A stretch of DNA of 64,000 nt from Escherichia coli (lineage in GTDB: Bacteria; Pseudomonadota; Gammaproteobacteria; Enterobacterales; Enterobacteriaceae), in the NCBI RefSeq assembly GCF_013315695.1, contig NZ_CP054353.1; one strand, written 5' to 3'. Under the pieces are notes generated by a model. The model did not search any database, was not told the origin of the DNA, and saw only the letters and a list, made by a program, of their open reading frames with translations. The position numbers and the translations under genes were made by a program. This document shows, one piece after another, positions 3,254 through 62,438 of this stretch (within the stretch, counting starts at the first letter, position 1; each line of letters begins with the position of its first letter).

Positions 3254-3349
3254 GGTAGCCTCCAAGCCATTGTTTTGTCGTTCCTGATCCGGCCTACATG
3301 CCGGATCCTGAAAAAAAGGGGACGATTCTAACGACGGTTAGCTTAATTG

Positions 3350-19545: not shown

Positions 19546-21987
19546 ATGTCACAAGATCCTTTCCAGGAACGCGAAGCTGAAAAATACGCGAATCCCATCC
19601 CTAGTCGGGAATTTATCCTCGAACATTTAACCAAACGTGAAAAACCGGCCAGCCGTGATGAGCTGGCGGTAGAACTGCACATTGAAGGCGAAGAGCAGCT
19701 TGAAGGCCTGCGTCGCCGCCTGCGCGCGATGGAGCGCGATGGTCAACTGGTCTTCACTCGTCGTCAGTGCTATGCGCTGCCGGAACGCCTCGACCTGGTG
19801 AAAGGTACCGTTATTGGCCACCGTGATGGCTACGGCTTTCTGCGGGTTGAAGGGCGTAAAGATGATTTGTATCTCTCCAGCGAGCAGATGAAAACCTGCA
19901 TTCATGGCGATCAGGTGCTGGCTCAGCCGCTGGGTGCTGACCGTAAAGGTCGTCGTGAAGCGCGTATTGTCCGCGTACTGGTGCCAAAAACCAGCCAGAT
20001 TGTTGGTCGCTACTTTACCGAAGCGGGCGTCGGCTTTGTGGTTCCTGACGACAGCCGTCTGAGCTTCGATATCTTAATCCCGCCCGATCAGATCATGGGC
20101 GCGCGGATGGGCTTTGTGGTCGTAGTCGAACTGACTCAGCGTCCGACTCGCCGCACCAAAGCGGTGGGTAAAATCGTCGAAGTGCTGGGCGACAATATGG
20201 GCACCGGCATGGCGGTTGATATCGCTCTGCGTACCCATGAAATTCCGTACATCTGGCCGCAGGCTGTTGAGCAACAGGTTGCCGGGCTGAAAGAAGAAGT
20301 GCCGGAAGAAGCAAAAGCGGGCCGTGTTGATCTGCGCGATTTACCGCTGGTCACCATTGATGGCGAAGACGCCCGTGACTTTGACGATGCAGTTTACTGC
20401 GAGAAAAAACGCGGCGGCGGCTGGCGTTTATGGGTCGCGATTGCCGACGTCAGCTACTATGTGCGTCCGTCAACGCCGCTGGACAGAGAAGCGCGTAACC
20501 GTGGCACGTCGGTGTACTTCCCTTCGCAGGTTATCCCGATGCTGCCGGAAGTGCTCTCTAACGGCCTGTGTTCGCTCAACCCGCAGGTAGACCGCCTGTG
20601 TATGGTGTGCGAGATGACGGTTTCGTCGAAAGGCCGCCTGACGGGCTACAAATTCTACGAAGCGGTGATGAGCTCTCACGCGCGTCTGACCTACACCAAA
20701 GTCTGGCATATTCTGCAGGGCGATCAGGATCTGCGCGAGCAGTACGCCCCGCTGGTTAAGCATCTCGAAGAGTTGCATAACCTCTATAAAGTGCTGGATA
20801 AAGCCCGTGAAGAACGCGGTGGGATCTCATTTGAGAGCGAAGAAGCGAAGTTCATTTTCAACGCTGAACGCCGTATTGAACGTATCGAACAGACCCAGCG
20901 TAACGACGCGCACAAATTAATTGAAGAGTGCATGATTCTGGCGAATATCTCGGCGGCGCGTTTCGTTGAGAAAGCGAAAGAACCGGCACTGTTCCGTATT
21001 CACGACAAGCCGAGCACCGAAGCGATTACCTCTTTCCGTTCAGTGCTGGCGGAGCTGGGGCTGGAACTGCCGGGCGGTAACAAGCCGGAACCGCGTGACT
21101 ACGCGGAGCTGCTGGAGTCGGTTGCCGATCGTCCTGATGCAGAAATGCTGCAAACCATGCTGCTGCGCTCGATGAAACAGGCGATTTACGATCCAGAAAA
21201 CCGTGGTCACTTTGGCCTGGCATTGCAGTCCTATGCGCACTTTACTTCGCCGATTCGTCGTTATCCAGACCTGACGCTGCACCGCGCCATTAAATATCTG
21301 CTGGCGAAAGAGCAGGGGCATCAGGGCAACACCACTGAAACCGGCGGCTACCATTATTCGATGGAAGAGATGCTGCAACTGGGTCAGCACTGTTCGATGG
21401 CGGAACGTCGTGCCGACGAAGCAACGCGCGATGTGGCTGACTGGCTGAAGTGTGACTTCATGCTCGACCAGGTAGGTAACGTCTTTAAAGGCGTAATTTC
21501 CAGCGTCACTGGCTTTGGCTTCTTCGTCCGTCTGGACGACTTGTTCATTGATGGTCTGGTCCATGTCTCTTCGCTGGACAATGACTACTATCGCTTTGAC
21601 CAGGTAGGGCAACGCCTGATGGGGGAATCCAGCGGCCAGACTTATCGCCTGGGCGATCGCGTGGAAGTTCGCGTCGAAGCGGTTAATATGGACGAGCGCA
21701 AAATCGACTTTAGCCTGATCTCCAGCGAACGCGCACCGCGCAACGTCGGTAAAACGGCGCGCGAGAAAGCGAAAAAAGGCGATGCAGGTAAAAAAGGCGG
21801 CAAGCGTCGTCAGGTCGGTAAAAAGGTAAACTTTGAGCCAGACAGCGCCTTCCGCGGTGAGAAAAAAACGAAGCCGAAAGCGGCGAAGAAAGACGCGAGA
21901 AAAGCGAAAAAGCCATCGGCGAAAACGCAGAAAATAGCTGCAGCGACCAAAGCGAAGCGTGCGGCGAAGAAAAAAGTGGCAGAGTGA
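19546..21987 (+). CDS. rnr: Ribonuclease R
   Basis: ORF 19504..21987; conserved start [14 protein letters not shown] at ATG 19546, 813 aa; RNB catalytic domain, S1 domain, Lys-rich basic C-terminal tail. Confidence 0.95.
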
Positions 21988-22044
21988 TCAATACCCTCTT
22001 TAAAAGAAGAGGGTTAGATTGCTGACAAAATGCGCTTTGTTCAT

Positions 22045-22142
22045 GCCGGATGCGGCGTGAACGCCTTATCCGGCCTACATAATCACGCAAATTCAATATA
22101 TTGCAGAGATCATGTAGGCCGGATAAACGTAGTGCATCAGGC
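22045..22142. repeat. REP/RIP element: two inverted REP units flanking an IHF-type L motif
   Basis: GCCGGATGCGGCGTGAACGCCTTATCCGGCCTACA and inverted TGTAGGCCGGATAAACGTAGTGCATCAGGC flanking AATTCAATATATTGC. Confidence 0.7.
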
Positions 22143-22166
22143 AAAACGTAAACAACGAGTACATTA

Positions 22167-22898
22167 ATGAGCGAAATGATTTACGGCATCCACGCAGTGC
22201 AGGCCCTGCTGGAGCGCGCCCCTGAACGTTTTCAGGAAGTCTTTATTTTAAAAGGCCGTGAAGATAAACGTCTGTTACCGCTGATTCACGCCCTTGAGTC
22301 TCAGGGCGTGGTTATCCAGTTGGCAAACCGCCAATATCTCGACGAGAAAAGCGACGGTGCCGTGCATCAGGGCATTATCGCCCGCGTGAAGCCAGGACGT
22401 CAGTATCAGGAAAACGATCTGCCGGATCTGATCGCTTCGCTCGATCAACCGTTCCTGCTGATCCTCGACGGCGTAACCGATCCGCACAACCTCGGCGCGT
22501 GCCTGCGTAGTGCGGACGCCGCAGGCGTTCATGCGGTGATTGTGCCGAAAGATCGCTCCGCACAGCTCAACGCTACGGCGAAAAAAGTAGCCTGCGGCGC
22601 GGCAGAAAGCGTTCCGCTGATTCGGGTGACTAACCTTGCGCGCACCATGCGTATGTTGCAGGAAGAGAATATCTGGATCGTCGGTACGGCAGGCGAGGCG
22701 GATCATACACTCTATCAGAGCAAAATGACCGGACGCCTGGCGCTGGTGATGGGTGCGGAAGGTGAAGGTATGCGTCGCCTGACTCGTGAACATTGCGATG
22801 AGTTGATCAGCATCCCGATGGCTGGAAGCGTTTCTTCCCTGAACGTTTCGGTTGCGACCGGAATTTGCTTATTTGAAGCGGTGCGCCAGCGCAGCTAG
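22167..22898 (+). CDS. rlmB: 23S rRNA (guanosine2251-2'-O)-methyltransferase RlmB
   Basis: ORF 22167..22898, 243 aa, SpoU/TrmH family motifs. Confidence 0.93.
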
Positions 22899-22974: not shown

Positions 22975-23775
22975 TTAATGGTGGGAATCAATACCGATAT
23001 TGATATCCTGTAAGGTGTTGAGTTCCTGTTCAATACGCGAACGTGCATTCAGCAGGATACGCGTGACATCGGCAATTTTTTCTTTTGTCGCACGAAATAC
23101 GGGTATTGAAATGCTGATGGCGGCAAGCGTTTTATTTCGCTGTTTTAAGGCAACAGCATAACATACCGTCTCCTCATTGATTTCCCTGTTATCAAATGCA
23201 TACCCATTTACTCTGGCATCCTCAAGTTGTTGGCGCAATTGTTCCAGGGTCGTAACGCTATACGATGTCATGGGAACAAAACCGTCAGGGTAGAGTTGCT
23301 GAATTTGTTGATCACTGTATTCACAGATAATGGCTTTTCCCAGCGCAGAATAGATAGCAGGCAGACGAGTCCCAATATGTGAAACCAGTTGTACGGTTTG
23401 TGCCGCCTGCACCTTATTGATATATAAAACATCTGCACCGTCCAGGATCCCCATCTGACAAACCTCATTGCACTCTTTGACAATGTTGTTCATCTCTTTG
23501 TAAACCATTTTTAACCAGTACGATCTGTCGAGGAAAGCACGGGACAGAATCGAGCAGGAGATCCCCAGATTATAAAGCTGGGTATTAGCGTCATAACTGA
23601 TGTACCGCTGTTCAACCAGCGTTTTGAGGATGGGAAAAATCGTTCCTTTCAGGATGCCTGTTTTTTCCGAAAGGTGAGTTAATGAAACACCCTGATTCTC
23701 CGCTGCCAGTGCTTCCAGTATCTCTAACACCCGGATGGTAGGCTTATGTTCCATAATGACTATTTCCCTTACCAT
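22975..23775 (-). CDS. IclR-family transcriptional regulator (accessory island)
   Basis: ORF 22975..23775, 266 aa (alternative ATG at 23754); N-terminal winged HTH (LEILEALAAENQGVSLTHLSEKTGILKGT) and C-terminal IclR effector domain; AT-rich coding sequence. Confidence 0.8.
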   Translation of the reverse strand: MVREIVIMEHKPTIRVLEILEALAAENQGVSLTHLSEKTGILKGTIFPILKTLVEQRYISYDANTQLYNLGISCSILSRAFLDRSYWLKMVYKEMNNIVKECNEVCQMGILDGADVLYINKVQAAQTVQLVSHIGTRLPAIYSALGKAIICEYSDQQIQQLYPDGFVPMTSYSVTTLEQLRQQLEDARVNGYAFDNREINEETVCYAVALKQRNKTLAAISISIPVFRATKEKIADVTRILLNARSRIEQELNTLQDINIGIDSHH

Positions 23776-23989
23776 GAGTAATGCACCATTCTAGGGAGAA
23801 TTATAATTCAAGTAAATAAACCCCCTCGCGTTCCTTGACTGCTGTTGACCCCATCAGTCCTTTTTTAGCGTGATACTGGTCATAAAACGGATAAAAAAAG
23901 AACTGTGATTGTTTTTTATGCAGGCCTCTGGCGTAATTACTCCAAATCTATCAATAACTTATGTGTATCACTTCTGTGATTGGCTAAAT

Positions 23990-24051
23990 TTGACTTATTT
24001 CTGAGGTTGGGTATACTCATTTTAGTTTGTATTTAAAAACGTTGTTTGTAT
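23990..24051 (+). promoter_or_regulatory. Candidate sigma70 promoter (TTGACT, 16 nt, TATACT) with two GTTTGTAT direct repeats just downstream (possible operator)
   Basis: TTGACT 23990-23995, TATACT 24012-24017; GTTTGTAT at 24025-24032 and 24044-24051; lies upstream of the aldolase-like gene and divergent from the IclR gene. Confidence 0.35.
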
Positions 24052-24082
24052 ATATGAACAATAAAACTATGATGAGGTAGGC

Positions 24083-24976
24083 ATGAAAAGTCGTTACATA
24101 ACCCCCGTTGTCACCATATTTGATGAACAAGGGCGAATCGATCCTGAGCAAAACACTCAGGTTTATGATTTTATTAAAAATCACGTGTCCGGGTTTGTTG
24201 TGATGGGCAGTACTGGTGAGTTTTTTTCGCTTAATATGGAAAACGCCCGCCAAATGATTAAAACCTGTAGTGAGTTTTCCCGAGGCGATATGAAGGTTTA
24301 TGCCGGAGCCAGTCGCATGGACGTCAATGAATCAATATCACTGGCCAATTACGCCTGGGAGCAAGGATTGGATGGTGTGATGATCATCAGTCCTTATTAT
24401 TTCCCTCTGGATGATGAAGCTATTTTTGATTTCTACAGTACGATTGCAAGCCAAACCCCGGCTCATATTTTTATTTATAACTTCCCGGAGAGAACCGGGT
24501 ACAGCGTATCACCAGAGATTTGTTTACGACTGGCAGATAAATATCCCAATATTATTGGTATGAAAGATACCGTCCCTGATGCTTTCCATACTGCGCAGGT
24601 TATCAATACCGTAAAGAAAAATATCCCTCATTTTGAAGTGTATGCAGGATATGACAATAATTTTGCCCACAACATACTATCTGGTGGAGATGGCTGTATT
24701 GGTGGTTTATCCAATATTGTCCCTGAATTTTTTGCCTCCTGGATGCAAGCATTCACGAATGACGATTTACTTGCAGTCGCGCAGCATCAGCAGATAGTCG
24801 ATCAACTAATGGCCGTTTACAGCGTGAATTCTCCTTTTATTCCCACTTTCAAAAAAGCCCTTCAGTTAAAGGGGGTTATTCAATCAGAACGGTGTTCTTC
24901 ACCATTTAATATACTTGATGATATTCAATCCCGGAGATTGCAGGAAATTTTATCTGTCACCGATTATTATAAATAA
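24083..24976 (+). CDS. DapA/NanA-family class I aldolase or lyase (2-keto-3-deoxy sugar-acid aldolase-like)
   Basis: ORF 24083..24976, 297 aa; GSTGEF motif, YNFP tyrosine and IIGMKDT lysine aligning with the DHDPS-family Schiff-base lysine. Confidence 0.8.
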   Translation: MKSRYITPVVTIFDEQGRIDPEQNTQVYDFIKNHVSGFVVMGSTGEFFSLNMENARQMIKTCSEFSRGDMKVYAGASRMDVNESISLANYAWEQGLDGVMIISPYYFPLDDEAIFDFYSTIASQTPAHIFIYNFPERTGYSVSPEICLRLADKYPNIIGMKDTVPDAFHTAQVINTVKKNIPHFEVYAGYDNNFAHNILSGGDGCIGGLSNIVPEFFASWMQAFTNDDLLAVAQHQQIVDQLMAVYSVNSPFIPTFKKALQLKGVIQSERCSSPFNILDDIQSRRLQEILSVTDYYK

Positions 24977-25026
24977 TATAAAACCTATAAATAGAATATC
25001 TTACCAACAGAACTAAGGATTTATTT

Positions 25027-26328
25027 ATGGCTAATATAACCCAATACGATAATCCGCTGTTGAATTCCGCAATTCAAAAATCGTGGAAACGTTTAGTACC
25101 CTTAATGTTCATAATGTATTTTGTTGCCTTTATTGATCGGGTAAATGTTGGCTTTGCCAAAGATGCAATGAAACTGGATATTGGATTATCAGAGTCGGCA
25201 TTCGCTCTCGGTGCAGGAATATTTTTCGCTGCCTATGCACTTTTCGGCATTCCAGCTAACCTGATCCTCAATAAAATCGGCGCACAAAAGTGGTTAAGTA
25301 TTACAACTGCAATTTGGGGCCTTCTCTCGGCAATGATGGGATTTGTCACCGGTGAAACGCAATTTATTATTTTGCGCTTTCTGTTAGGGCTGGGCGAGGC
25401 GGGGTTCTATCCCGGAATTTTACTGCTCGCATCCATTTATTTTCCTAACAAGGTTCGCGGATCGGTCGTGGGAATATTTGTGTTGGGGGTGCCGCTGGCG
25501 TTAACGCTCGGTTCGCCAATATCGGGAGCTTTACTTGAACTACATGGCTGGATGGGACGTCCAGGATGGTTCTGGATGTTTGTCATTGAGGGATTGCCGG
25601 CATTAGTGCTTGGTATCTTTACCTGGTTCTACCTTGATGATAATCCGACGAAAGCGCGATTTCTTACCCAGGAAGAAAAAGACGCTTTGAATAAGCAACT
25701 GGAATCTGAACGACAGAAAACAGAAACCAGTTCAGTGATTTCAGCATTGAAAAATGCCAAAGTTTGGCATCTGGCATTAATCTACGGCACCATCCAGATA
25801 TCAGTATATGGTTTAATGTTTTTCCTTCCGTCACAGGTTGCATCGCTGATGGGAGAAAGCCTTGGCTTTAAGCAGTCATTAGTCGCGGCAATACCATGGG
25901 CGTGCTCTGCTTGTGGCGTCTATTACATTCCGCGAATTGCTGACCGCAATCCTTCCCGGCGTGTGGCCATTTCGGTTATGTGTATGTTGGCTGCTGCTGT
26001 CGGCCTTGCCCTTTCCGCATTTGCGGGGCCTGTTGTGGCGATTGGTGCACTTTGTTTAAGTGCGGTTGGTTTCCTCTCAGTACAGCCAATATTCTGGACT
26101 TTCCCTCCACAACTTCTTACTGGTCCGGCACTGGCTGCGGGGATCGGTTTTTGCACCACGATGGGCGCTTTCTGCTCGTTCCTTGCTCCTCTTATCCGTG
26201 TTGAGGTTGATCGGGCAATGGATAGCAGCATCGCCGGATTGATGGCGTTGTCTGTAATTACTATCGGCTGCGCATTATTGATTGGATTGCTGCAAAAGAG
26301 CCAACAGGCAGCAAAAGCATACAGTTAA
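25027..26328 (+). CDS. MFS transporter, anion:cation symporter-like (putative sugar-acid permease)
   Basis: ORF 25027..26328, 433 aa, about 12 predicted TM helices, FIDRVNVGFA motif near TM1. Confidence 0.8.
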   Translation: MANITQYDNPLLNSAIQKSWKRLVPLMFIMYFVAFIDRVNVGFAKDAMKLDIGLSESAFALGAGIFFAAYALFGIPANLILNKIGAQKWLSITTAIWGLLSAMMGFVTGETQFIILRFLLGLGEAGFYPGILLLASIYFPNKVRGSVVGIFVLGVPLALTLGSPISGALLELHGWMGRPGWFWMFVIEGLPALVLGIFTWFYLDDNPTKARFLTQEEKDALNKQLESERQKTETSSVISALKNAKVWHLALIYGTIQISVYGLMFFLPSQVASLMGESLGFKQSLVAAIPWACSACGVYYIPRIADRNPSRRVAISVMCMLAAAVGLALSAFAGPVVAIGALCLSAVGFLSVQPIFWTFPPQLLTGPALAAGIGFCTTMGAFCSFLAPLIRVEVDRAMDSSIAGLMALSVITIGCALLIGLLQKSQQAAKAYS

Positions 26329-26355
26329 TAAGATTGAACATCTGACTGGAAGAAT

Positions 26356-42419: not shown

Positions 42420-42971
42420 ATGGCTATCAATGGATTGTTTGTCAGAACGGATCCGCAGCGTCGCCGCTATGGCGTTGCGTTACTTGTGGGTGTGCTTTCA
42501 GGAATTATTTCAGCATTTGTTAAATGGGGAGCGGAAGTCCCCTTGCCACCGCGCACATTTTCCGGTGGTCGCGATGAATTTAACCCGCCGTATATCTTTC
42601 TACGAGATTATTTAGGTATCGACCCAACCCAAACTGTGTATACCTTCTCGGAACATATTATCAACCCGGTGATGGTGACGCATATCATCTTCTCCCTGGT
42701 TTTTGCGATAGGGTATTGTGTTGTCGCGGAAATTTTCCCGAAAGTGAAATTATGGCAGGGGATATTAGCAGGGCTTATTGTGACAGTGGCAGTCCACGGT
42801 ATATTTTGCCCGGCGCTGAATTTAACGCCGCCGCTCACTCAATTGCCTTTTGACGAATATGCGTCTGAAATCTTGGGGCATATTTTCTGGTTCTGGATAA
42901 TAGAGATTATGCGCCGCGACTTACGTAATCGCATTACTCATGAGCCGGATCCGGAAGTCGCAATTCGGTGA
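42420..42971 (+). CDS. YagU-like inner-membrane protein (DUF1440 family)
   Basis: ORF 42420..42971, 183 aa; RRRYG...[15 protein letters not shown]...NPPYIFLRD...THIIFS..GYCVVAE...[13 protein letters not shown] pattern resembles E. coli YagU; 3-4 predicted TM helices. Confidence 0.7.
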
Positions 42972-43321: not shown

Positions 43322-43629
43322 AGATACCTCCTCGACGGCTGACTTTGTGTGCTCTCCTCTGTGATGATCTTCTGATTTAATTTTAATCAATGATAAAGAA
43401 GTTGATGGTGACCATTTCTGATGCAGTTGTTCGAAAAAACACTGTGACGGAATGTGATGAACTTCAAATCAGGGAGTTAGTTCTTTTGAGCGAAAGATGA
43501 GATTTATTTGTCGGCTGGCCTTGAGTTTAGCGGGGCATACAAGTACTATAACGCGTCATTTTTCAGCCGACCTTTAACACGTTCCTTGCCTCCCCGGGAT
43601 TCGGCTGACCCAGACAGGAGGCTGAATAA

Positions 43630-44043
<414 letters not shown>

Positions 44044-46574: not shown

Positions 46575-47006
46575 CTAACCAGGTGTTTGCTGTTGTTCAA
46601 TGTATTGACGGATGGCGGATATTGGCGCACCTCCGCAGCTACTGGCAAAATAGCCAGGACTCCACAAAACGCCTTTGTAGTAATACCTGACTGCAATATC
46701 TGGTCGATCTCGTCGCAGTCACCTACCCGATACGCCTTTGAGGCTGTTTACCAGACTGGATATCGCCAGTTTGGGAGGATAGTTAATTAACAAATGGACG
46801 TGATCTGGTTCGCCATCCATTTCAACCAGTTCAGCTTCAAAATCAGCACATACATTTGAAAAGTAAGTGCGTAGTTTTTCTGTCGCGTCATAGTCAAAAA
46901 TCTGACGTCGGTATCTGGTGACAAAGACCAGGTGAACATGCATCAGGAAAACACAATGCCTTCCCCGTCGGATATCGGTTTCTTTATTCACAGACCAAAG
47001 TATCAT
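46575..47006 (-). pseudogene. tnpA: IS200-type Y1 (HUH) transposase TnpA interrupted by an in-frame TGA at codon 96
   Basis: ORF track 46719..47006 gives 95 aa (...[27 protein letters not shown]); the same frame continues past the TGA as [44 protein letters not shown], the conserved TnpA C-terminus. Confidence 0.7.
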
Positions 47007-47013
47007 TTGGCCT

Positions 47014-48222
47014 GTGAAACGACTACAGGCATTTAAATTCCAGTTAAGACCCGGTGGTCAACAGGAGCGTGAAATGAGGCGCTTCGCAGGCGCATGCCGT
47101 TTCGTTTTCAATCGTGCTCTGGCGCTTCAGAATGAGAATCATGAGGCCGGTAATAAATACATCCCTTACGGGAAAATGGCTTCCTGGCTGGTTGAGTGGA
47201 AAAACGCCACTGAAATGCAATGGCTTAAAGATTCGCCCTCACAGCCATTGCAACAGTCACTGAAAGACCTTGAGCGGGCTTACAAAAACTTCTTCCAGAA
47301 GCGGGCTGCTTTTCCCCGATTCAAAAAGCGGGGACAGAATGATGCATTCCGCTACCCGCAGGGCGTTAAGCTCGATCAGGAAAACAGCCGTATTTTTCTG
47401 CCGAAACTTGGCTGGATGCGCTACCGGAACAGCCGTCAGGTCACGGGTGTTGTGAAAAATGTCACTGTCAGCCAGTCCTGCGGTAAGTGGTACATCAGTA
47501 TTCAGACAGAAAGTGAAGTATCCACTCCGGTTCACCCTTCAGCATCAATGGTCGGGCTGGATGCTGGCGTGGCTAAACTCGCCACGCTGTCAGATGGCAC
47601 AGTCTTTGAGCCTGTAAACAGTTTTCAGAAAAACCAGAAGACGCTGGCGAGACTTCAGCGACAGTTAAGCCGCAAGGTCGAATTCAGCAATAACTGGCAG
47701 AAGCAGAAACGCAAAATACAGCGACTGCATTCCCGTATCGCAAATATCCGCAGGGACTACCTTCACAAAGTCACAACGACCGTCAGCAAAAACCACGCAA
47801 TGATAGTCATTGAGGATTTGAAGGTCAGCAACATGTCAAAGTCAGCAGCGGGTACGGTCAGCCAGCCGGGGCGCAATGTCCGGGCAAAATCAGGTTTAAA
47901 CCGTTCGATACTGGATCAGGGCTGGTATGAAATGCGCCGCCAGCTTGAGTACAAGCAGCTCTGGCGTGGCGGTCAGGTGCTTGCTGTTCCGCCAGCGTAC
48001 ACAAGCCAGCGTTGCGCGTGCTGTGGTCATACAGCGAAAGAAAATCGCCTGTCACAAAGTAAATTCAGATGCCAGGCATGTGGATATACAGCGAACGCTG
48101 ATGTAAATGGCGCTCGTAACATTTTAGCGGCGGGGCACGCCGTTCTTGCCTGTGGAGAGATGGTGCAGTCAGGCCGCTCGTTGAAGCAGGAACCCACCGA
48201 AATGATTCAGGCGACAGCCTGA
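47014..48222 (+). CDS. tnpB: TnpB (IS605 OrfB-family RuvC-like RNA-guided nuclease)
   Basis: ORF 47014..48222, 402 aa, GTG start; C-terminal zinc finger CACCGH...CQACG and RuvC-III-like ADVNGARNI. Confidence 0.85.
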
Positions 48223-60133: not shown

Positions 60134-61477
60134 TTACGCGACGCTTTCTTCTTTATCTTTAGCGTCAGGCAGTTTTGGCGAAAGGGCTGTGGCCTTGCTG
60201 TCGATCCGGGTCACCAGCAGCTGGTCGATGCGGTAGTTATCGATATCCACCACTTCAAATTTGTAGCCGGCGAATTTCACCGAATCGGTGCGTTTCGGGA
60301 TCTTACGCAGCATAAACATCATAAAGCCGCCGATGGTTTCGTAGTTGCCCGACTGCGGGAACTCGTCAATATCCAGCACGCGCATGACGTCGTCAATCGG
60401 AGTGCCGCCGTCAATCAGCCATGAGTTCTCATCACGGGCGACAATCTGCTCTTCCAGCCCCTGGCCGACCAGATCGCCCATCAGCGTGGTCATCACGTCG
60501 TTGAGGGTGATGATCCCCACTACCAGCGCGTACTCGTTCATGATCACCGCGAAGTCTTCACCTGCGGTTTTAAAACTTTCCAACGCCTCTGAAAGGGTTA
60601 ACGTATCCGGCACAATCAGCGTGTTGCGAATTTGTACGCCGCTGTTCAGTGCCAGGCTTTGGTTAGCCAGCACGCGGTTCAGCAGGTCTTTAGAATCGAC
60701 ATAGCCGATGATGTGGTCAATATCTTCATTACAGACGAGGAACTTAGAGTGCGGATGTTCCGCCACCTTATTCTTCAGACTTTGCTCATCTTCGTGGAGA
60801 TCAAACCAAATCACGTTTTCACGCGGTGTCATTGAAGACGGAACGGTACGGGATTCTAGTTCAAAGACGTTTTCAATCAGCTCGTGTTCCTGTTTACGTA
60901 ACACGCCCGCCAGCGCACCGGCTTCCACTACCGCGTAGATGTCATCAGAAGTGATGTCATCTTTACGTACCATTGGCAGTTTGAAAATACGGAAGATCAT
61001 GTTCGCCAGGCCGTTGAAGAACCACACCAGCGGGGTGCAAACGTACAGGCAGAAGCGCATCGGGTTGATGATACGCAAAGCCACAGCTTCTGGCGCAATC
61101 ATACCGATGCGTTTCGGGGTTAAATCCGCAAACAGGATAAACATGCCAGTCACTAACGAGAAAGAGAGAATAAAGCTCAGTTGCTCAGAGAGTTCTGCCG
61201 ACATATAGCGGGAGAACAGGCTGTGAAAAGCTGGAGAAAATGCCGCATCACCGACGATACCGCCGAGAATCGCCACTGCGTTCAGACCGATTTGGACCAC
61301 GGTAAAGAACATGCCGGGATTTTCCTGCATATTCAGAACGCGTTGGGCATTTATATTGCCTTCATCAGCCAGCAGTTTAAGTTTGATTTTGCGTGAGGCG
61401 GCAAGCGAGATCTCGGACATCGAGAAGAACGCACTTACAGCGATCAAACAGAGTATGACTAAAATACTGTTTAACAT
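60134..61477 (-). CDS. ytfL: Membrane protein YtfL (CNNM-type DUF21 with CBS pair and CorC/HlyC domains)
   Basis: ORF 60134..61477, 447 aa. Confidence 0.9.
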   Translation of the reverse strand: MLNSILVILCLIAVSAFFSMSEISLAASRKIKLKLLADEGNINAQRVLNMQENPGMFFTVVQIGLNAVAILGGIVGDAAFSPAFHSLFSRYMSAELSEQLSFILSFSLVTGMFILFADLTPKRIGMIAPEAVALRIINPMRFCLYVCTPLVWFFNGLANMIFRIFKLPMVRKDDITSDDIYAVVEAGALAGVLRKQEHELIENVFELESRTVPSSMTPRENVIWFDLHEDEQSLKNKVAEHPHSKFLVCNEDIDHIIGYVDSKDLLNRVLANQSLALNSGVQIRNTLIVPDTLTLSEALESFKTAGEDFAVIMNEYALVVGIITLNDVMTTLMGDLVGQGLEEQIVARDENSWLIDGGTPIDDVMRVLDIDEFPQSGNYETIGGFMMFMLRKIPKRTDSVKFAGYKFEVVDIDNYRIDQLLVTRIDSKATALSPKLPDAKDKEESVA

Positions 61478-61654
61478 ATCTTATCCGACCTTTCAGGCCA
61501 GATCCTCGGAAGGGGAAGTTGATTAATTTGTGTGAAATACACATTGAAAGCCGATTCGAAGAAAGTGAACCGGCATTTTCAGTGGCTAGTATAGCGTAAG
61601 GTACTGTAAAGCCGCCAGAGGGTTAAAATTCAGACTGCTGATAAATGCAAAACT

Positions 61655-61753
61655 GCCTGATGCGCTATGCCGATCAGGCCTACGCACTCGTTGCAATATA
61701 TTGAATTTGGACGATTTTGTAGGCCTGGTAAGGCGTTTACGTCGCATCCGGCA
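61655..61753. repeat. REP/RIP element: inverted REP units flanking an IHF-type L motif
   Basis: GCCTGATGCGCTATGCCGATCAGGCCTAC ... TTGCAATATATTGAATTTG ... TGTAGGCCTGGTAAGGCGTTTACGTCGCATCCGGCAT. Confidence 0.65.
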
Positions 61754-61799
61754 TAAACAAAACGCACTTTATCAACAATCTACATTTGTACCCTTAACG

Positions 61800-62438
61800 C
61801 TATGCTTCCGGCGGCAGACAGACGCCAATTCCGCCAATTCCACAGTAACCATACGGGTTTTTATGCAGATATTGCTGGTGGTCATCTTCGGCATAATAAA
61901 ACGGTGTGGCGTTCGCGATTTCCGTGGTGATGCGACGATCGTCATCGGCGGCAAGCATCGCCGCCTGAAAACGTTCCAGACTGGCGCGAGCTGCGGCATC
62001 CTGTTCTGGGGTCAGCGGATAAATCGCTGAACGATACTGCGTGCCGTGGTCATTGCCCTGACGCATTCCCTGGGCGGGATCGTGATTCTCCCAAAATACC
62101 TGTAGCAACTGCTCATAGCTGATGACGGAAGGATCGTAAACAATGCGTACCGCTTCGGCATGACCAGTATCACCGGAACACACTTCCCGATAAGTCGGAT
62201 TTGGCGTATAGCCGCCGGTATAGCCTGCGGCGGTGCTGTAAACGCCGGGTAACTGCCAGAACAGTCGCTCCACACCCCAGAAACAACCCATCGCAAAAAT
62301 GGCAATCTCCATTCCGTCAGGTACATTGGTCATTGAGTGACCGTTGACCGCATGCAGCGTGGCTACGGGCATCGGGGTGTTACGTCCAGGCAGGGCATCG
62401 GCGGGGGAAACCAGATGCTTTTTATCAAATAAACTCAT
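61800..62438 (-). CDS. msrA: Peptide methionine sulfoxide reductase MsrA
   Basis: ORF 61800..62504; start [18 protein letters not shown] at ATG 62438, 212 aa, active-site GCFWG. Confidence 0.93.

What the first reader, a model, noticed from the sequence alone, without database searches (positions are those of the whole stretch)
22045..22142. RIP-type REP elements with an IHF L-motif at two intergenic sites
The elements at 22045-22142 and 61655-61753 each consist of inverted REP units around an AATTCAATATATTGC / TTGCAATATATTGAATTTG core, the organisation of IHF-binding REP elements. Simple REPs occur at 33973-34007 and 54772-54870.
Basis: partly seen in the sequence, partly recalled or inferred. 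Interest (0 to 1): 0.2.

Follow-up and report, generated by a model that had tools for sequence, protein, structure and literature searches.

The report
Two ordinary BIME-1 (RIP) repeat elements
Both sites are copies of a long-known E. coli intergenic repeat (BIME-1, also called RIP or RIB), in which two inverted REP hairpins flank a conserved linker that binds the DNA-bending protein IHF; the finding is correct but ordinary, although related copies elsewhere are often bracketed by a duplicated terminator hairpin, which may show how the element inserts.

Summary
The window is E. coli chromosome. Site 1 (rnr-rlmB spacer) and site 2 (paeA-msrA spacer) are each a y-type REP, a 35-nt L linker with the core ATTCAATATATTG, and a z1-type REP in tail-to-tail arrangement. 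That is the definition of BIME-1 (RIP/RIB).

A profile built only from 128 copies in other genomes hits the two sites at E = 4e-44 and 2e-42. The repeated unit is larger than reported:
- Site 1 has a 30-nt left flank motif (22015-22044) and lacks the right flank.
- Site 2 has both flank motifs (61630-61782).

Both elements are dispensable. About 29% of complete E. coli genomes carry a short rnr-rlmB allele with a single atypical REP and no linker. About 2.5% lack the msrA element. Klebsiella has no REP at rnr-rlmB.

The block at 54772-54870 is a REP doublet plus a fragment, not a simple REP.

Side observation: 27 of 72 full-length family copies are bracketed by a direct duplication of a locus-specific terminator hairpin (12-30 nt). 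At two E. coli loci the empty sites carry that hairpin once. I could not establish whether this has been described before.

The finding itself is already known and of low interest.

The parts
21993..22014 (+). Locus-specific hairpin ACCCTCTT-TAAAAG-AAGAGGGT just after the rnr stop codon (21985-21987). It abuts the left end of the element and is not part of the repeat family.
   Evidence: I3, 8-bp perfect stem. It is retained in the short allele and a different hairpin sits at the same position in Klebsiella.
22015..22044 (+). Site 1 left flank motif (outer motif of BIME-1; the label 'A' is from memory), TAGATTGCTGACAAAATGCGCTTTGTTCAT.
   Evidence: 27/30 to the family consensus. Inside the nhmmer hit 22013-22144. 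Aligned with site 2.
22045..22078 (+). Site 1 y-type REP, inverted orientation (iREP, ending in CTAC).
   Evidence: 34/34 to the consensus. Hairpin energy -19.5 kcal/mol. Partial Rfam naRNA4 REP-hairpin hit.
22079..22113 (+). Site 1 L linker. The IHF-type core ATTCAATATATTG lies at 22091-22103.
   Evidence: 29/35 to the consensus. Rfam ES036 22079-22121, 30.6 bits, model positions 1-43 of 43. The core matches WATCAANNNNTTR at 8 of 9 specified positions (read from the sequence; the consensus is from established knowledge).
22114..22143 (+). Site 1 z1-type REP (starts with GTAG), with 3 substitutions that weaken its own hairpin.
   Evidence: 27/30 to the consensus. Hairpin -6.2 versus -12.9 kcal/mol for the consensus. 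The canonical z1 sits at this position in E. whittamii.
61630..61653 (-). Site 2 right flank motif (outer motif on the z1 side; the label 'B' is from memory).
   Evidence: 19/24 to the consensus. Inside the nhmmer hit 61628-61783. The breakpoint of the element-free allele lies at about 61630.
61654..61683 (-). Site 2 z1-type REP.
   Evidence: 27/30 to the consensus; hairpin -13.6 kcal/mol.
61684..61718 (-). Site 2 L linker. The IHF-type core lies at 61694-61706.
   Evidence: 27/35 to the consensus. Rfam ES036 61676-61717 on the minus strand, 37.6 bits, equal to its gathering score.
61719..61752 (-). Site 2 y-type REP (iREP when read on the minus strand).
   Evidence: 30/34 to the consensus; hairpin -10.0 kcal/mol.
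61753..61782 (-). Site 2 left flank motif. It begins 17 nt after the msrA stop codon (61800-61802, minus strand).
   Evidence: 26/30 to the consensus. It forms an outer inverted repeat with the other flank (I1).
33973..34007 (+). Solitary y-type REP between the convergent genes aidB and yjfN.
   Evidence: nhmmer partial hit 33968-34010 to the y segment, E = 2e-10. Gene map.
54773..54870 (.). REP cluster between ytfH and cpdB (convergent genes): an inverted 30-nt REP, a 12-nt linker, a 37-nt long-type REP and a truncated REP head. It starts 1-2 nt after the ytfH stop codon.
   Evidence: Gene map.

Best explanation
Both sites are copies of the enterobacterial repeat BIME-1 (also called RIP or RIB). 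This is a roughly 130-160 bp, nearly palindromic element with the layout: flank motif, y REP, L linker, z1 REP, flank motif.

Shown here:
- The identity and anatomy of both copies, and their high copy number.
- Their position at the 3' end of genes.
- Strong predicted single-strand structure.
- Dispensability in natural populations.

Inferred from the family's published properties, at the DNA level:
- IHF binds the linker core ATTCAATATATTG and bends the DNA sharply between the two REPs.
- The REPs are recognised by DNA gyrase, Pol I and the REP-associated Y1 transposase.

Inferred at the RNA level:
- Site 1 is transcribed inside the ...nsrR-rnr-rlmB operon, and site 2 most likely forms part of the msrA 3' UTR.
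- In RNA the y and z1 units pair with each other into a long hairpin. This should slow 3'-to-5' exonucleases, stabilising the upstream cistron, and should partly attenuate read-through into rlmB or paeA.

The elements are there because the family spreads like a non-autonomous mobile element, not because these loci need them. Any local effect is modest.

The confidence of 0.9 refers to the identity as BIME-1 and the general mode of action. The locus-specific functional steps are less certain.
For: Identity:
- Profile HMM from 128 foreign copies gives E = 4e-44 and 2e-42.
- Segment identities are y 34/34 and 30/34, z1 27/30 for both, L 29/35 and 27/35.
- Data-driven y and z1 classes were derived from 115 and 140 REPs.
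- The BIME-1 definition is in PMC3333891 and PMC1187871.
- The Rfam ES036 linker model matches full length at both sites.

IHF-type core under constraint:
- In 38 copies not selected by the search pattern, TTCAATAnATTG is mostly 80-99% conserved per position. The variable position falls inside the NNNN of the IHF consensus.

Copy number:
- There are 178 copies in the 120 fetched loci plus the session's other sequences.

Location:
- Of 94 copies with both neighbours called, 52 lie between convergent genes, 40 between co-directional genes and 2 between divergent genes.

Transcription of site 1:
- K-12 RNA-seq places rnr and rlmB in one operon (PMC4161252).

Structure:
- Predicted RNA energy is -72.5 kcal/mol (z = -8.8) for site 1 and -73.9 kcal/mol (z = -5.6) for site 2. 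Tail-to-tail y:z1 pairing surrounds the linker.

Dispensability and mobility:
- 1,583 of 5,425 genomes do not carry the long allele at >=80% query coverage; the sampled ones have the short rnr-rlmB allele without y and L.
- About 138 genomes lack the msrA element.
- Klebsiella has no REP at rnr-rlmB.
Against: - IHF occupancy at these two loci was not shown. The IHF ChIP-seq paper has no held supplement.
- An 8-of-9 match to a degenerate consensus is weak on its own.
- The simple scans find no intrinsic terminator or sigma-70 promoter in or next to either element, so attenuation is inferred only.
- Substitutions weaken the individual REP hairpins at site 1 z1 (-6.2 kcal/mol) and site 2 y (-10.0 kcal/mol).
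- Site 1 lacks the right flank motif, 5/24.
- The natural element-free alleles argue against any important local function.
Confidence: 0.9

Rival explanations
1. They are dedicated small-RNA genes, as an Rfam-based annotation would label site 2 (ES036/CssrF).
For: Site 2 reaches the ES036 gathering score of 37.6 bits, and site 1 scores 30.6 bits. CssrF was detected as a roughly 290-nt Northern band at dacB/yhbZ in Shigella (PMC3071730).
Against: - The ES036 consensus is simply the BIME-1 linker plus GTAGGCC, a sequence repeated at least 40 times per genome.
- No promoter-like or terminator-like signals flank either copy.
- Site 1 lies inside a polycistronic transcript.
- The element is absent in many strains.
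Confidence: 0.04
2. They are purpose-built regulatory sites, needed for correct expression of their neighbours: an intercistronic stabiliser/attenuator for rnr-rlmB and a terminator/insulator between msrA and paeA.
For: - Both lie directly after a stop codon in the same orientation relative to the upstream gene.
- Site 1 is conserved in E. whittamii and a cryptic Escherichia clade.
- Predicted RNA structure is strong.
- From memory: RNase R degrades REP-containing mRNAs, so a REP on the rnr mRNA could in principle feed back on it.
Against: - 29% of E. coli genomes have the short allele with no linker and no y REP.
- 2.5% lack the msrA element.
- Klebsiella has neither.
- Across the family, orientation in co-directional contexts is 23 versus 17, which is no bias.
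Confidence: 0.15
3. They are BIME-2-type or atypical REP clusters that work mainly as DNA gyrase sites.
For: REPs in general bind gyrase. BIME-2 elements are enriched for gyrase cleavage sites (PMC6379681).
Against: - Both have z1 rather than z2, a long 35-nt L linker rather than a short one, and a single copy rather than tandem units.
- Gyrase cleavage sites are slightly depleted at IHF sites genome-wide.
Confidence: 0.03
4. The resemblance is chance, or simply GC-rich terminator palindromes.
For: None beyond the palindromic nature of the sequence.
Against: E-values are 1e-42 to 1e-44 against an independent profile. The two sites share about 130 nt of aligned homology, with 81% column identity over the whole 203-column alignment including flanks.
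Confidence: 0.001

Closest known systems
BIME-1 (Gilson/Bachellier/Hofnung), also called RIP (Oppenheim et al. 1993) or RIB (Boccard & Prentki 1993)
   Same: One y and one z1 REP in inverted orientation, a long conserved L linker with an IHF site, single copy per locus, about 140 bp, extragenic at 3' ends, and present or absent among isolates (definitions in PMC3333891 and PMC1187871; tested).
   Different: Nothing essential. Site 1 is truncated on the z1 side, with no outer flank motif, and its z1 arm carries 3 substitutions. Site 2 carries 3-4 substitutions per REP.
BIME-2 and atypical BIMEs
   Same: Built from the same REP superfamily. The y unit is shared. The cluster at 54773-54870 resembles this class.
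   Different: BIME-2 uses z2, short S linkers and tandem repetition, and is the gyrase-preferred class. The two sites have z1, an L linker and a single copy.
Rfam RF02751 ES036 (CssrF) and RF02564 naRNA4 (CssrE)
   Same: The ES036 consensus AAAuUUGUGCAAAUUCAAUAAAUUGCAGGAaAUACGUAGGCCU is the L linker. The first hairpin of naRNA4 is a y REP.
   Different: Those families describe transcripts detected at other loci (dacB/yhbZ; REP325). Nothing shows independent sRNA genes here.
REPINs (Bertels & Rainey) with RAYT/TnpA(REP) Y1 transposases
   Same: An inverted REP doublet with a spacer that forms one long hairpin as a single strand. It is proposed to be a non-autonomous mobile unit, and presence/absence varies between strains.
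   Different: IS200/IS605-type Y1 transposition makes no target duplication. The hairpin-length direct repeats seen around many BIME-1 copies are not predicted by that mechanism. No RAYT gene lies in the window.
MITEs (for example ERIC/IRU and Correia elements)
   Same: Terminal inverted flank motifs, target-duplication-like direct repeats, long RNA hairpins, an internal IHF site (Correia) and co-transcription with neighbours (PMC3184786).
   Different: MITE duplications are short and of fixed length. Here the duplicated segment is a whole locus-specific hairpin of variable length, 12-30 nt.

Membership tests
BIME-1 / RIP / RIB | Two REPs in inverted orientation, one y-type and one z1-type | tested here: met
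   Site 1 has y 34/34 and z1 27/30. Site 2 has y 30/34 and z1 27/30, against consensuses derived from 115 y and 140 z1 REPs.
BIME-1 / RIP / RIB | A conserved GTAG at the foot of each REP, with the two REPs tail to tail (CTAC...linker...GTAG) | tested here: met
   Read directly. Inverted repeat TTATCCGGCCTAC.../...GTAGGCCGGATAA.
BIME-1 / RIP / RIB | A long, well-conserved L linker (about 35 nt) carrying an IHF consensus | tested here: met
   Linker identity is 29/35 and 27/35. The core ATTCAATATATTG is exact at both sites. Rfam ES036 gives full-length matches. The core is conserved in 38 unselected copies.
BIME-1 / RIP / RIB | Single unit per locus, not tandemly repeated | tested here: met
   There is one nhmmer hit per locus in the forward orientation.
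BIME-1 / RIP / RIB | Outer flank motifs on both sides, giving a unit of about 140-160 bp | tested here: inconclusive
   Site 2 has both (26/30 and 19/24). Site 1 has the left one (27/30) but not the right (5/24). The same truncation is seen in E. whittamii. Truncated copies are common in the family: only 81 of 178 are complete at both ends.
BIME-1 / RIP / RIB | Extragenic, at the 3' end of a transcription unit | tested here: met
   Site 1 starts 27 nt after the rnr stop codon. Site 2 starts 17 nt after the msrA stop codon. Family-wide, only 2 of 94 copies lie between divergent genes.
BIME-1 / RIP / RIB | Many dispersed copies per genome in Escherichia and relatives | tested here: met
BIME-1 / RIP / RIB | Specific binding of IHF to the linker | not testable with these tools
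   This rests on the literature only (PMC3333891 and PMC2817692, citing Boccard & Prentki 1993 and Oppenheim 1993). The primary papers and the ChIP-seq tables are not held.
Rfam RF02751 ES036 (CssrF) sRNA | Score at or above the gathering threshold (37.6 bits) | tested here: inconclusive
   Site 2 scores exactly 37.6 bits. Site 1 scores 30.6 bits, below threshold.
Rfam RF02751 ES036 (CssrF) sRNA | Expressed as a discrete small RNA from its own promoter | not testable with these tools
   No promoter-like or terminator-like site was found by the simple scan. No expression data exist for these loci.
BIME-2 | y plus z2 REPs, short S linker, tandem repetition | tested here: not met
   Both sites have a z1-length (30 nt) REP, a 35-nt linker and a single unit.

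The most novel reading that the evidence does not exclude
BIME-1 may insert at rho-independent terminator hairpins and duplicate the whole hairpin. That would be a structure-defined, variable-length (12-30 nt) target duplication, which Y1 (RAYT) transposition does not predict.

Evidence:
- 27 of 72 non-redundant full-length copies are bracketed by such direct repeats.
- Two E. coli loci (yvcK-uvrB and yhaH-yhaJ) show empty sites with one hairpin and filled sites with two.
- The T-run follows only the distal copy, so the element ends up inside the 3' UTR.

The two window copies would then be variants of this process. Site 1 keeps only the proximal hairpin. Site 2 sits inside the loop of a split hairpin.

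The pattern itself is solid. The probability given is that it is both mechanistically meaningful and not already described in the 1990s BIME papers, which I could not read.
Probability: 0.3. Interest if true: 0.55.

Novelty: already known. Interest (0 to 1): 0.17.

Why it matters
For the finding itself there is little at stake. It correctly recognises two copies of a repeat family described in 1991-1993, useful mainly for annotation.

Practical value of this check:
- It gives corrected element boundaries.
- It warns that Rfam's ES036 hit at site 2 is a repeat-element linker, not evidence of an sRNA gene.
- It provides natural allele pairs for testing what BIME-1 does to neighbouring genes. These are the long and short rnr-rlmB alleles (71% and 29% of E. 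coli) and the filled and empty msrA-paeA alleles. They are ready-made isogenic-style contrasts.

The side observation of hairpin-length flanking duplications bears on an open question, namely how REP/BIME elements move. If it has not been described already, it would constrain the mechanism.

Tried and rejected
1. Looked for REP/RIP repeat_region annotation in NC_000913.3. The copy held lists none, so K-12's own labels could not be used.
2. Primary papers are not held: Boccard & Prentki 1993, Bachellier 1997 and Gilson 1991. The IHF ChIP-seq paper has no held supplement. Locus-specific IHF occupancy therefore could not be checked.
3. A fuzzy-regex REP scan timed out. It was replaced by an nhmmer profile.
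4. Promoter and terminator scans around both sites found nothing relevant.
5. Tested whether the shared orientation of the two sites relative to the upstream gene reflects a family rule. It does not: 23 versus 17 in co-directional contexts.
6. Tested whether the element-free msrA-paeA allele is a clean excision. It is not. About 50 nt next to the breakpoint and the msrA 3' end are divergent, so it is an allelic replacement.
7. Considered the short rnr-rlmB allele as a simple deletion derivative. This is unlikely, because its REP differs from z1 by two compensated stem changes and folds better (-16.3 kcal/mol), so it is a different REP subtype at the same junction.
8. A candidate REP at 3284-3297 is only a short REP-like remnant and is not significant with the profile.
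9. Literature searches for a prior description of terminator-hairpin duplication around BIME-1 found none in the accessible papers.

Full report
**1. What the window is**

Megablast of both sites against 5,426 complete E. coli genomes finds them in essentially all.
- Site 1 lies between rnr (stop at 21985-21987) and rlmB (ATG at 22167), both on the plus strand.
- Site 2 lies between paeA/ytfL (60134-61477, minus strand) and msrA (stop at 61800-61802, minus strand).
- The window is identical to strain EcPF7 over the tested stretches.
- It is identical to K-12 at site 1 and about 97% identical at site 2.

**2. The observation**

The sequences are as described.

Site 1 reads:
- GCCGGATGCGGCGTGAACGCCTTATCCGGCCTAC
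- ATAATCACGCAAATTCAATATATTGCAGAGATCAT
- GTAGGCCGGATAAACGTAGTGCATCAGGCA

The reverse complement of site 2 has the same order and aligns with site 1 at 81% column identity over 203 columns, flanks included.

To avoid judging from memory, I scanned one genome per species for AATTCAATAWATTGC-N(6-12)-GTAGGCC. These came from several Escherichia species, Pseudocitrobacter and Citrobacter, plus a few short contigs in unrelated assemblies that are probably contamination.

The ungapped consensus of these copies is:
- Left flank: CAGATTGTTGACAAAGTGCGCTTTGTTCAT
- y REP: GCCGGATGCGGCGTGAACGCCTTATCCGGCCTAC
- L linker: AAAATCGTGCAAATTCAATATATTGCAGAAACCTT
- z1 REP: GTAGGCCTGATAAGCGTAGCGCATCAGGCA
- Right flank: ATTTTGCGTTTGTCATCAGTCTCA

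A profile HMM from the 128 foreign copies hits:
- 22013-22144 (plus strand) at E = 4.1e-44
- 61628-61783 (minus strand) at E = 2.2e-42
- only REP-sized partial matches at 33968-34010 and 54767-54856

Segment identities:

| Segment | Site 1 | Site 2 |
|---|---|---|
| Left flank | 27/30 | 26/30 |
| y REP | 34/34 | 30/34 |
| L linker | 29/35 | 27/35 |
| z1 REP | 27/30 | 27/30 |
| Right flank | 5/24 (absent) | 19/24 |

The y sequence equals the published REP consensus GCCGGATGCGGCGTGAACGCCTTATCCGGCCTAC(GA) quoted in PMC12306157.

**3. Identity**

[quoted passage not shown] All sequence-level criteria are met.

Rfam supports this independently. The ES036 (CssrF) model, whose consensus is the L linker, matches both sites over all 43 positions. 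Site 2 scores 37.6 bits, its gathering score, and site 1 scores 30.6 bits. The first hairpin of naRNA4 matches the y REPs. CssrF was a Northern band from the dacB/yhbZ spacer of Shigella. The Rfam family therefore describes a transcript of another BIME-1 copy, not an sRNA gene at these loci.

**4. The IHF core**

ATTCAATATATTG matches WATCAANNNNTTR (established consensus, from memory) at 8 of 9 specified positions. CAATATATTG is itself a perfect palindrome.

That match alone is weak evidence. The stronger evidence comes from 38 family copies that do not contain my search pattern. In them, TTCAATAnATTG stays mostly 80-99% conserved per position, while the central position varies freely (T, G, C or A). 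This is the behaviour expected for the NNNN of an IHF site.

Binding itself is taken from the literature. The primary papers and the ChIP tables were not available.

**5. Context and likely action**

- K-12 RNA-seq puts rnr and rlmB in one operon (PMC4161252), so site 1 is intercistronic RNA.
- Site 2 follows msrA and precedes the paeA leader, which carries the Rfam element STnc450 (61539-61596, minus strand).
- As single strands, both fold far better than shuffles: -72.5 kcal/mol (z = -8.8) and -73.9 kcal/mol (z = -5.6).
- In those folds the y tail pairs with the z1 head around the linker. At site 2 the flank motifs extend this into one 160-nt hairpin.
- No intrinsic terminator or sigma-70 promoter is detected by the simple scans.
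- Across the family, 52 copies lie between convergent genes, 40 between co-directional genes and 2 between divergent genes. There is no orientation bias in co-directional contexts (23 versus 17).

The most likely working picture is therefore the published one. IHF bends the linker in DNA. In RNA, the structured element protects the upstream message from 3' exonucleases and attenuates read-through. All functional steps are inferred, not shown.

**6. Dispensability and history**

Site 1:
- 3,842 of 5,425 genomes carry the long allele. About 1,580 (29%) carry an allele 89 bp shorter.
- The short allele consists of the rnr hairpin, GAATTATCC, and a single REP GTAGGCCGGGCAAGCGTGGCGCTCCCGGCA at the z1 position. 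Its right junction GGCA|AAACGTAAAC is identical to that of the long allele.
- That REP differs from z1 by two compensated stem pairs and folds at -16.3 kcal/mol. It is another REP subtype, not a decayed z1.
- E. whittamii and Escherichia sp. MOD1-EC7003 have the long allele with a canonical z1 arm and the same missing right flank.
- Klebsiella has an 81-bp spacer with a hairpin and no REP.

Site 2:
- 5,287 of 5,425 genomes carry the element. About 138 have a divergent allele without it.
- In that allele the breakpoint lies at the end of the flank motif (about 61630), and the msrA 3' end is also divergent. It is therefore not a clean excision.

Both elements are old, polymorphic and non-essential.

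**7. The other REPs**

- 33973-34007 is one y-type REP between the convergent genes aidB and yjfN.
- 54773-54870, between ytfH and cpdB, holds an inverted 30-nt REP, a 12-nt linker, a 37-nt long-type REP and a truncated REP head. It is BIME-2-like or atypical, and it begins 1-2 nt after the ytfH stop codon.

**8. Noticed in passing: duplicated terminator hairpins**

When the flanks of family copies were printed, many elements were bracketed on both sides by the same locus-specific GC-rich hairpin in direct repeat, abutting the element ends (TCAGATTG...CAGTCTCA).

Numbers:
- 30 of 78 full-length copies score 12 or more, against 11 of 379 mismatched flank pairs. That control is inflated by orthologous loci.
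- After collapsing redundancy, 27 of 72 copies have direct repeats of 12-30 nt.
- The repeats fold as hairpins, with a median of -13.4 kcal/mol.
- A T-run follows the distal copy in 12 of 27 cases and the proximal copy in 0 of 27.
- An A-run precedes the proximal copy in 11 of 27 cases.

Empty-site tests:
- At yhaH-yhaJ, strain Z135-3 has a single AAGCACCTTGTAAAAGGTGCTT. Strains JNEC-KY203 and SCPM-O-B-8794 have that 22-mer on both sides of a BIME-1.
- At yvcK-uvrB, EC332 has one hairpin and no element. E69 has hairpin, element, hairpin. K-12 has the hairpin on the proximal side only.

Some loci carry tandem arrays of hairpin plus BIME-1.

The window copies fit as variants:
- Site 1 has the proximal hairpin only (21993-22014).
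- Site 2 splits a hairpin: AGGGT, element, ACCCT.

This looks like a structure-defined target duplication, which IS200/IS605-type Y1 transposition does not produce. None of the accessible papers mention it. The 1990s primary papers could not be read, so I cannot claim novelty.

**9. Verdict**

The elements are already known and the finding is of low interest. It comes with corrected boundaries, population data showing dispensability, and one side observation that is worth checking against the old literature.

Noticed in passing
L049:805-964, L133, L132, L055:4296-4454, L128, L129, and many of L002-L121: Full-length BIME-1 copies are often (27 of 72) bracketed by a direct duplication of a locus-specific terminator hairpin, 12-30 nt long. 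At two E. coli loci the empty sites have the hairpin once. The T-run follows only the distal copy. This looks like a target duplication defined by the hairpin structure.
   Followed up: partly
L094:11502-12208, continuing in L095; L120:116-458; L121:2330-2665; also L098:2648-3310, L108:141-965 and L100:14057-14381: Tandem arrays occur in cryptic-clade Escherichia genomes. Some are [hairpin + BIME-1] units with a period of about 182 bp. Others are shorter units of about 107-130 bp that carry the L linker. BIME-1 is usually described as single-copy.
   Followed up: no
window 22114-22143 versus L123:419-448: 29% of complete E. coli genomes carry a different REP subtype (GTAGGCCGGGCAAGCGTGGCGCTCCCGGCA) at exactly the position of the site 1 z1 arm. 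It has two compensated stem changes relative to z1 and the same right junction. This suggests REP-for-REP replacement at a fixed site.
   Followed up: partly
window 61539-61596 (minus strand): Rfam STnc450 (77 bits) lies in the paeA leader, about 30 nt downstream of site 2 on the transcribed strand. The paeA promoter must therefore sit at or inside the end of the BIME-1. The simple scan found no sigma-70 match.
   Followed up: no
window 22975-27957: A four-gene block lies between rlmB and yjfI: an IclR-family regulator, a dihydrodipicolinate-synthase-family protein, an MFS transporter and a UxaA-family hydrolase. It is absent from K-12, where yjfI follows rlmB by 126 bp. In the matching strain yjfI is annotated as a pseudogene.
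   Followed up: no
window about 46575-48222: An IS200/IS605-family tnpA plus a tnpB (InsQ) gene is inserted into the ytfA (TetR-family) pseudogene. This is not the REP-associated transposase.
   Followed up: no
window about 42420-42971: A YagU-family gene lies between ulaF and yjfY and is absent from K-12. Here ulaF is annotated shorter (636 versus 687 bp).
   Followed up: no
window 3270-3310: A short REP-like remnant (CCTGATCCGGCCTACATGCCGGATCCTG) forms a small hairpin between psd/asd and rsgA. It is not significant against the BIME-1 profile.
   Followed up: partly
L019, L020, L090-L093: Perfect Escherichia-type BIME-1 linkers occur on short contigs of assemblies labelled Bacteroides MAG, Collinsella MAG, Desulfosporosinus sp. 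OT and Alkalicoccobacillus porphyridii. This is most likely enterobacterial contamination or mis-binning.
   Followed up: no
window 54769-54775: The REP cluster after ytfH begins 1-2 nt after the stop codon. That puts it in the class (within 15 nt of a stop codon) reported to lower translation of the upstream gene (class mentioned in PMC12306157).
   Followed up: no
window 56845-56967 and 43566-43650: Rfam ES239 sRNA (157 bits) and the RpsF leader (110 bits) are present. Both are ordinary E. coli features.
   Followed up: no
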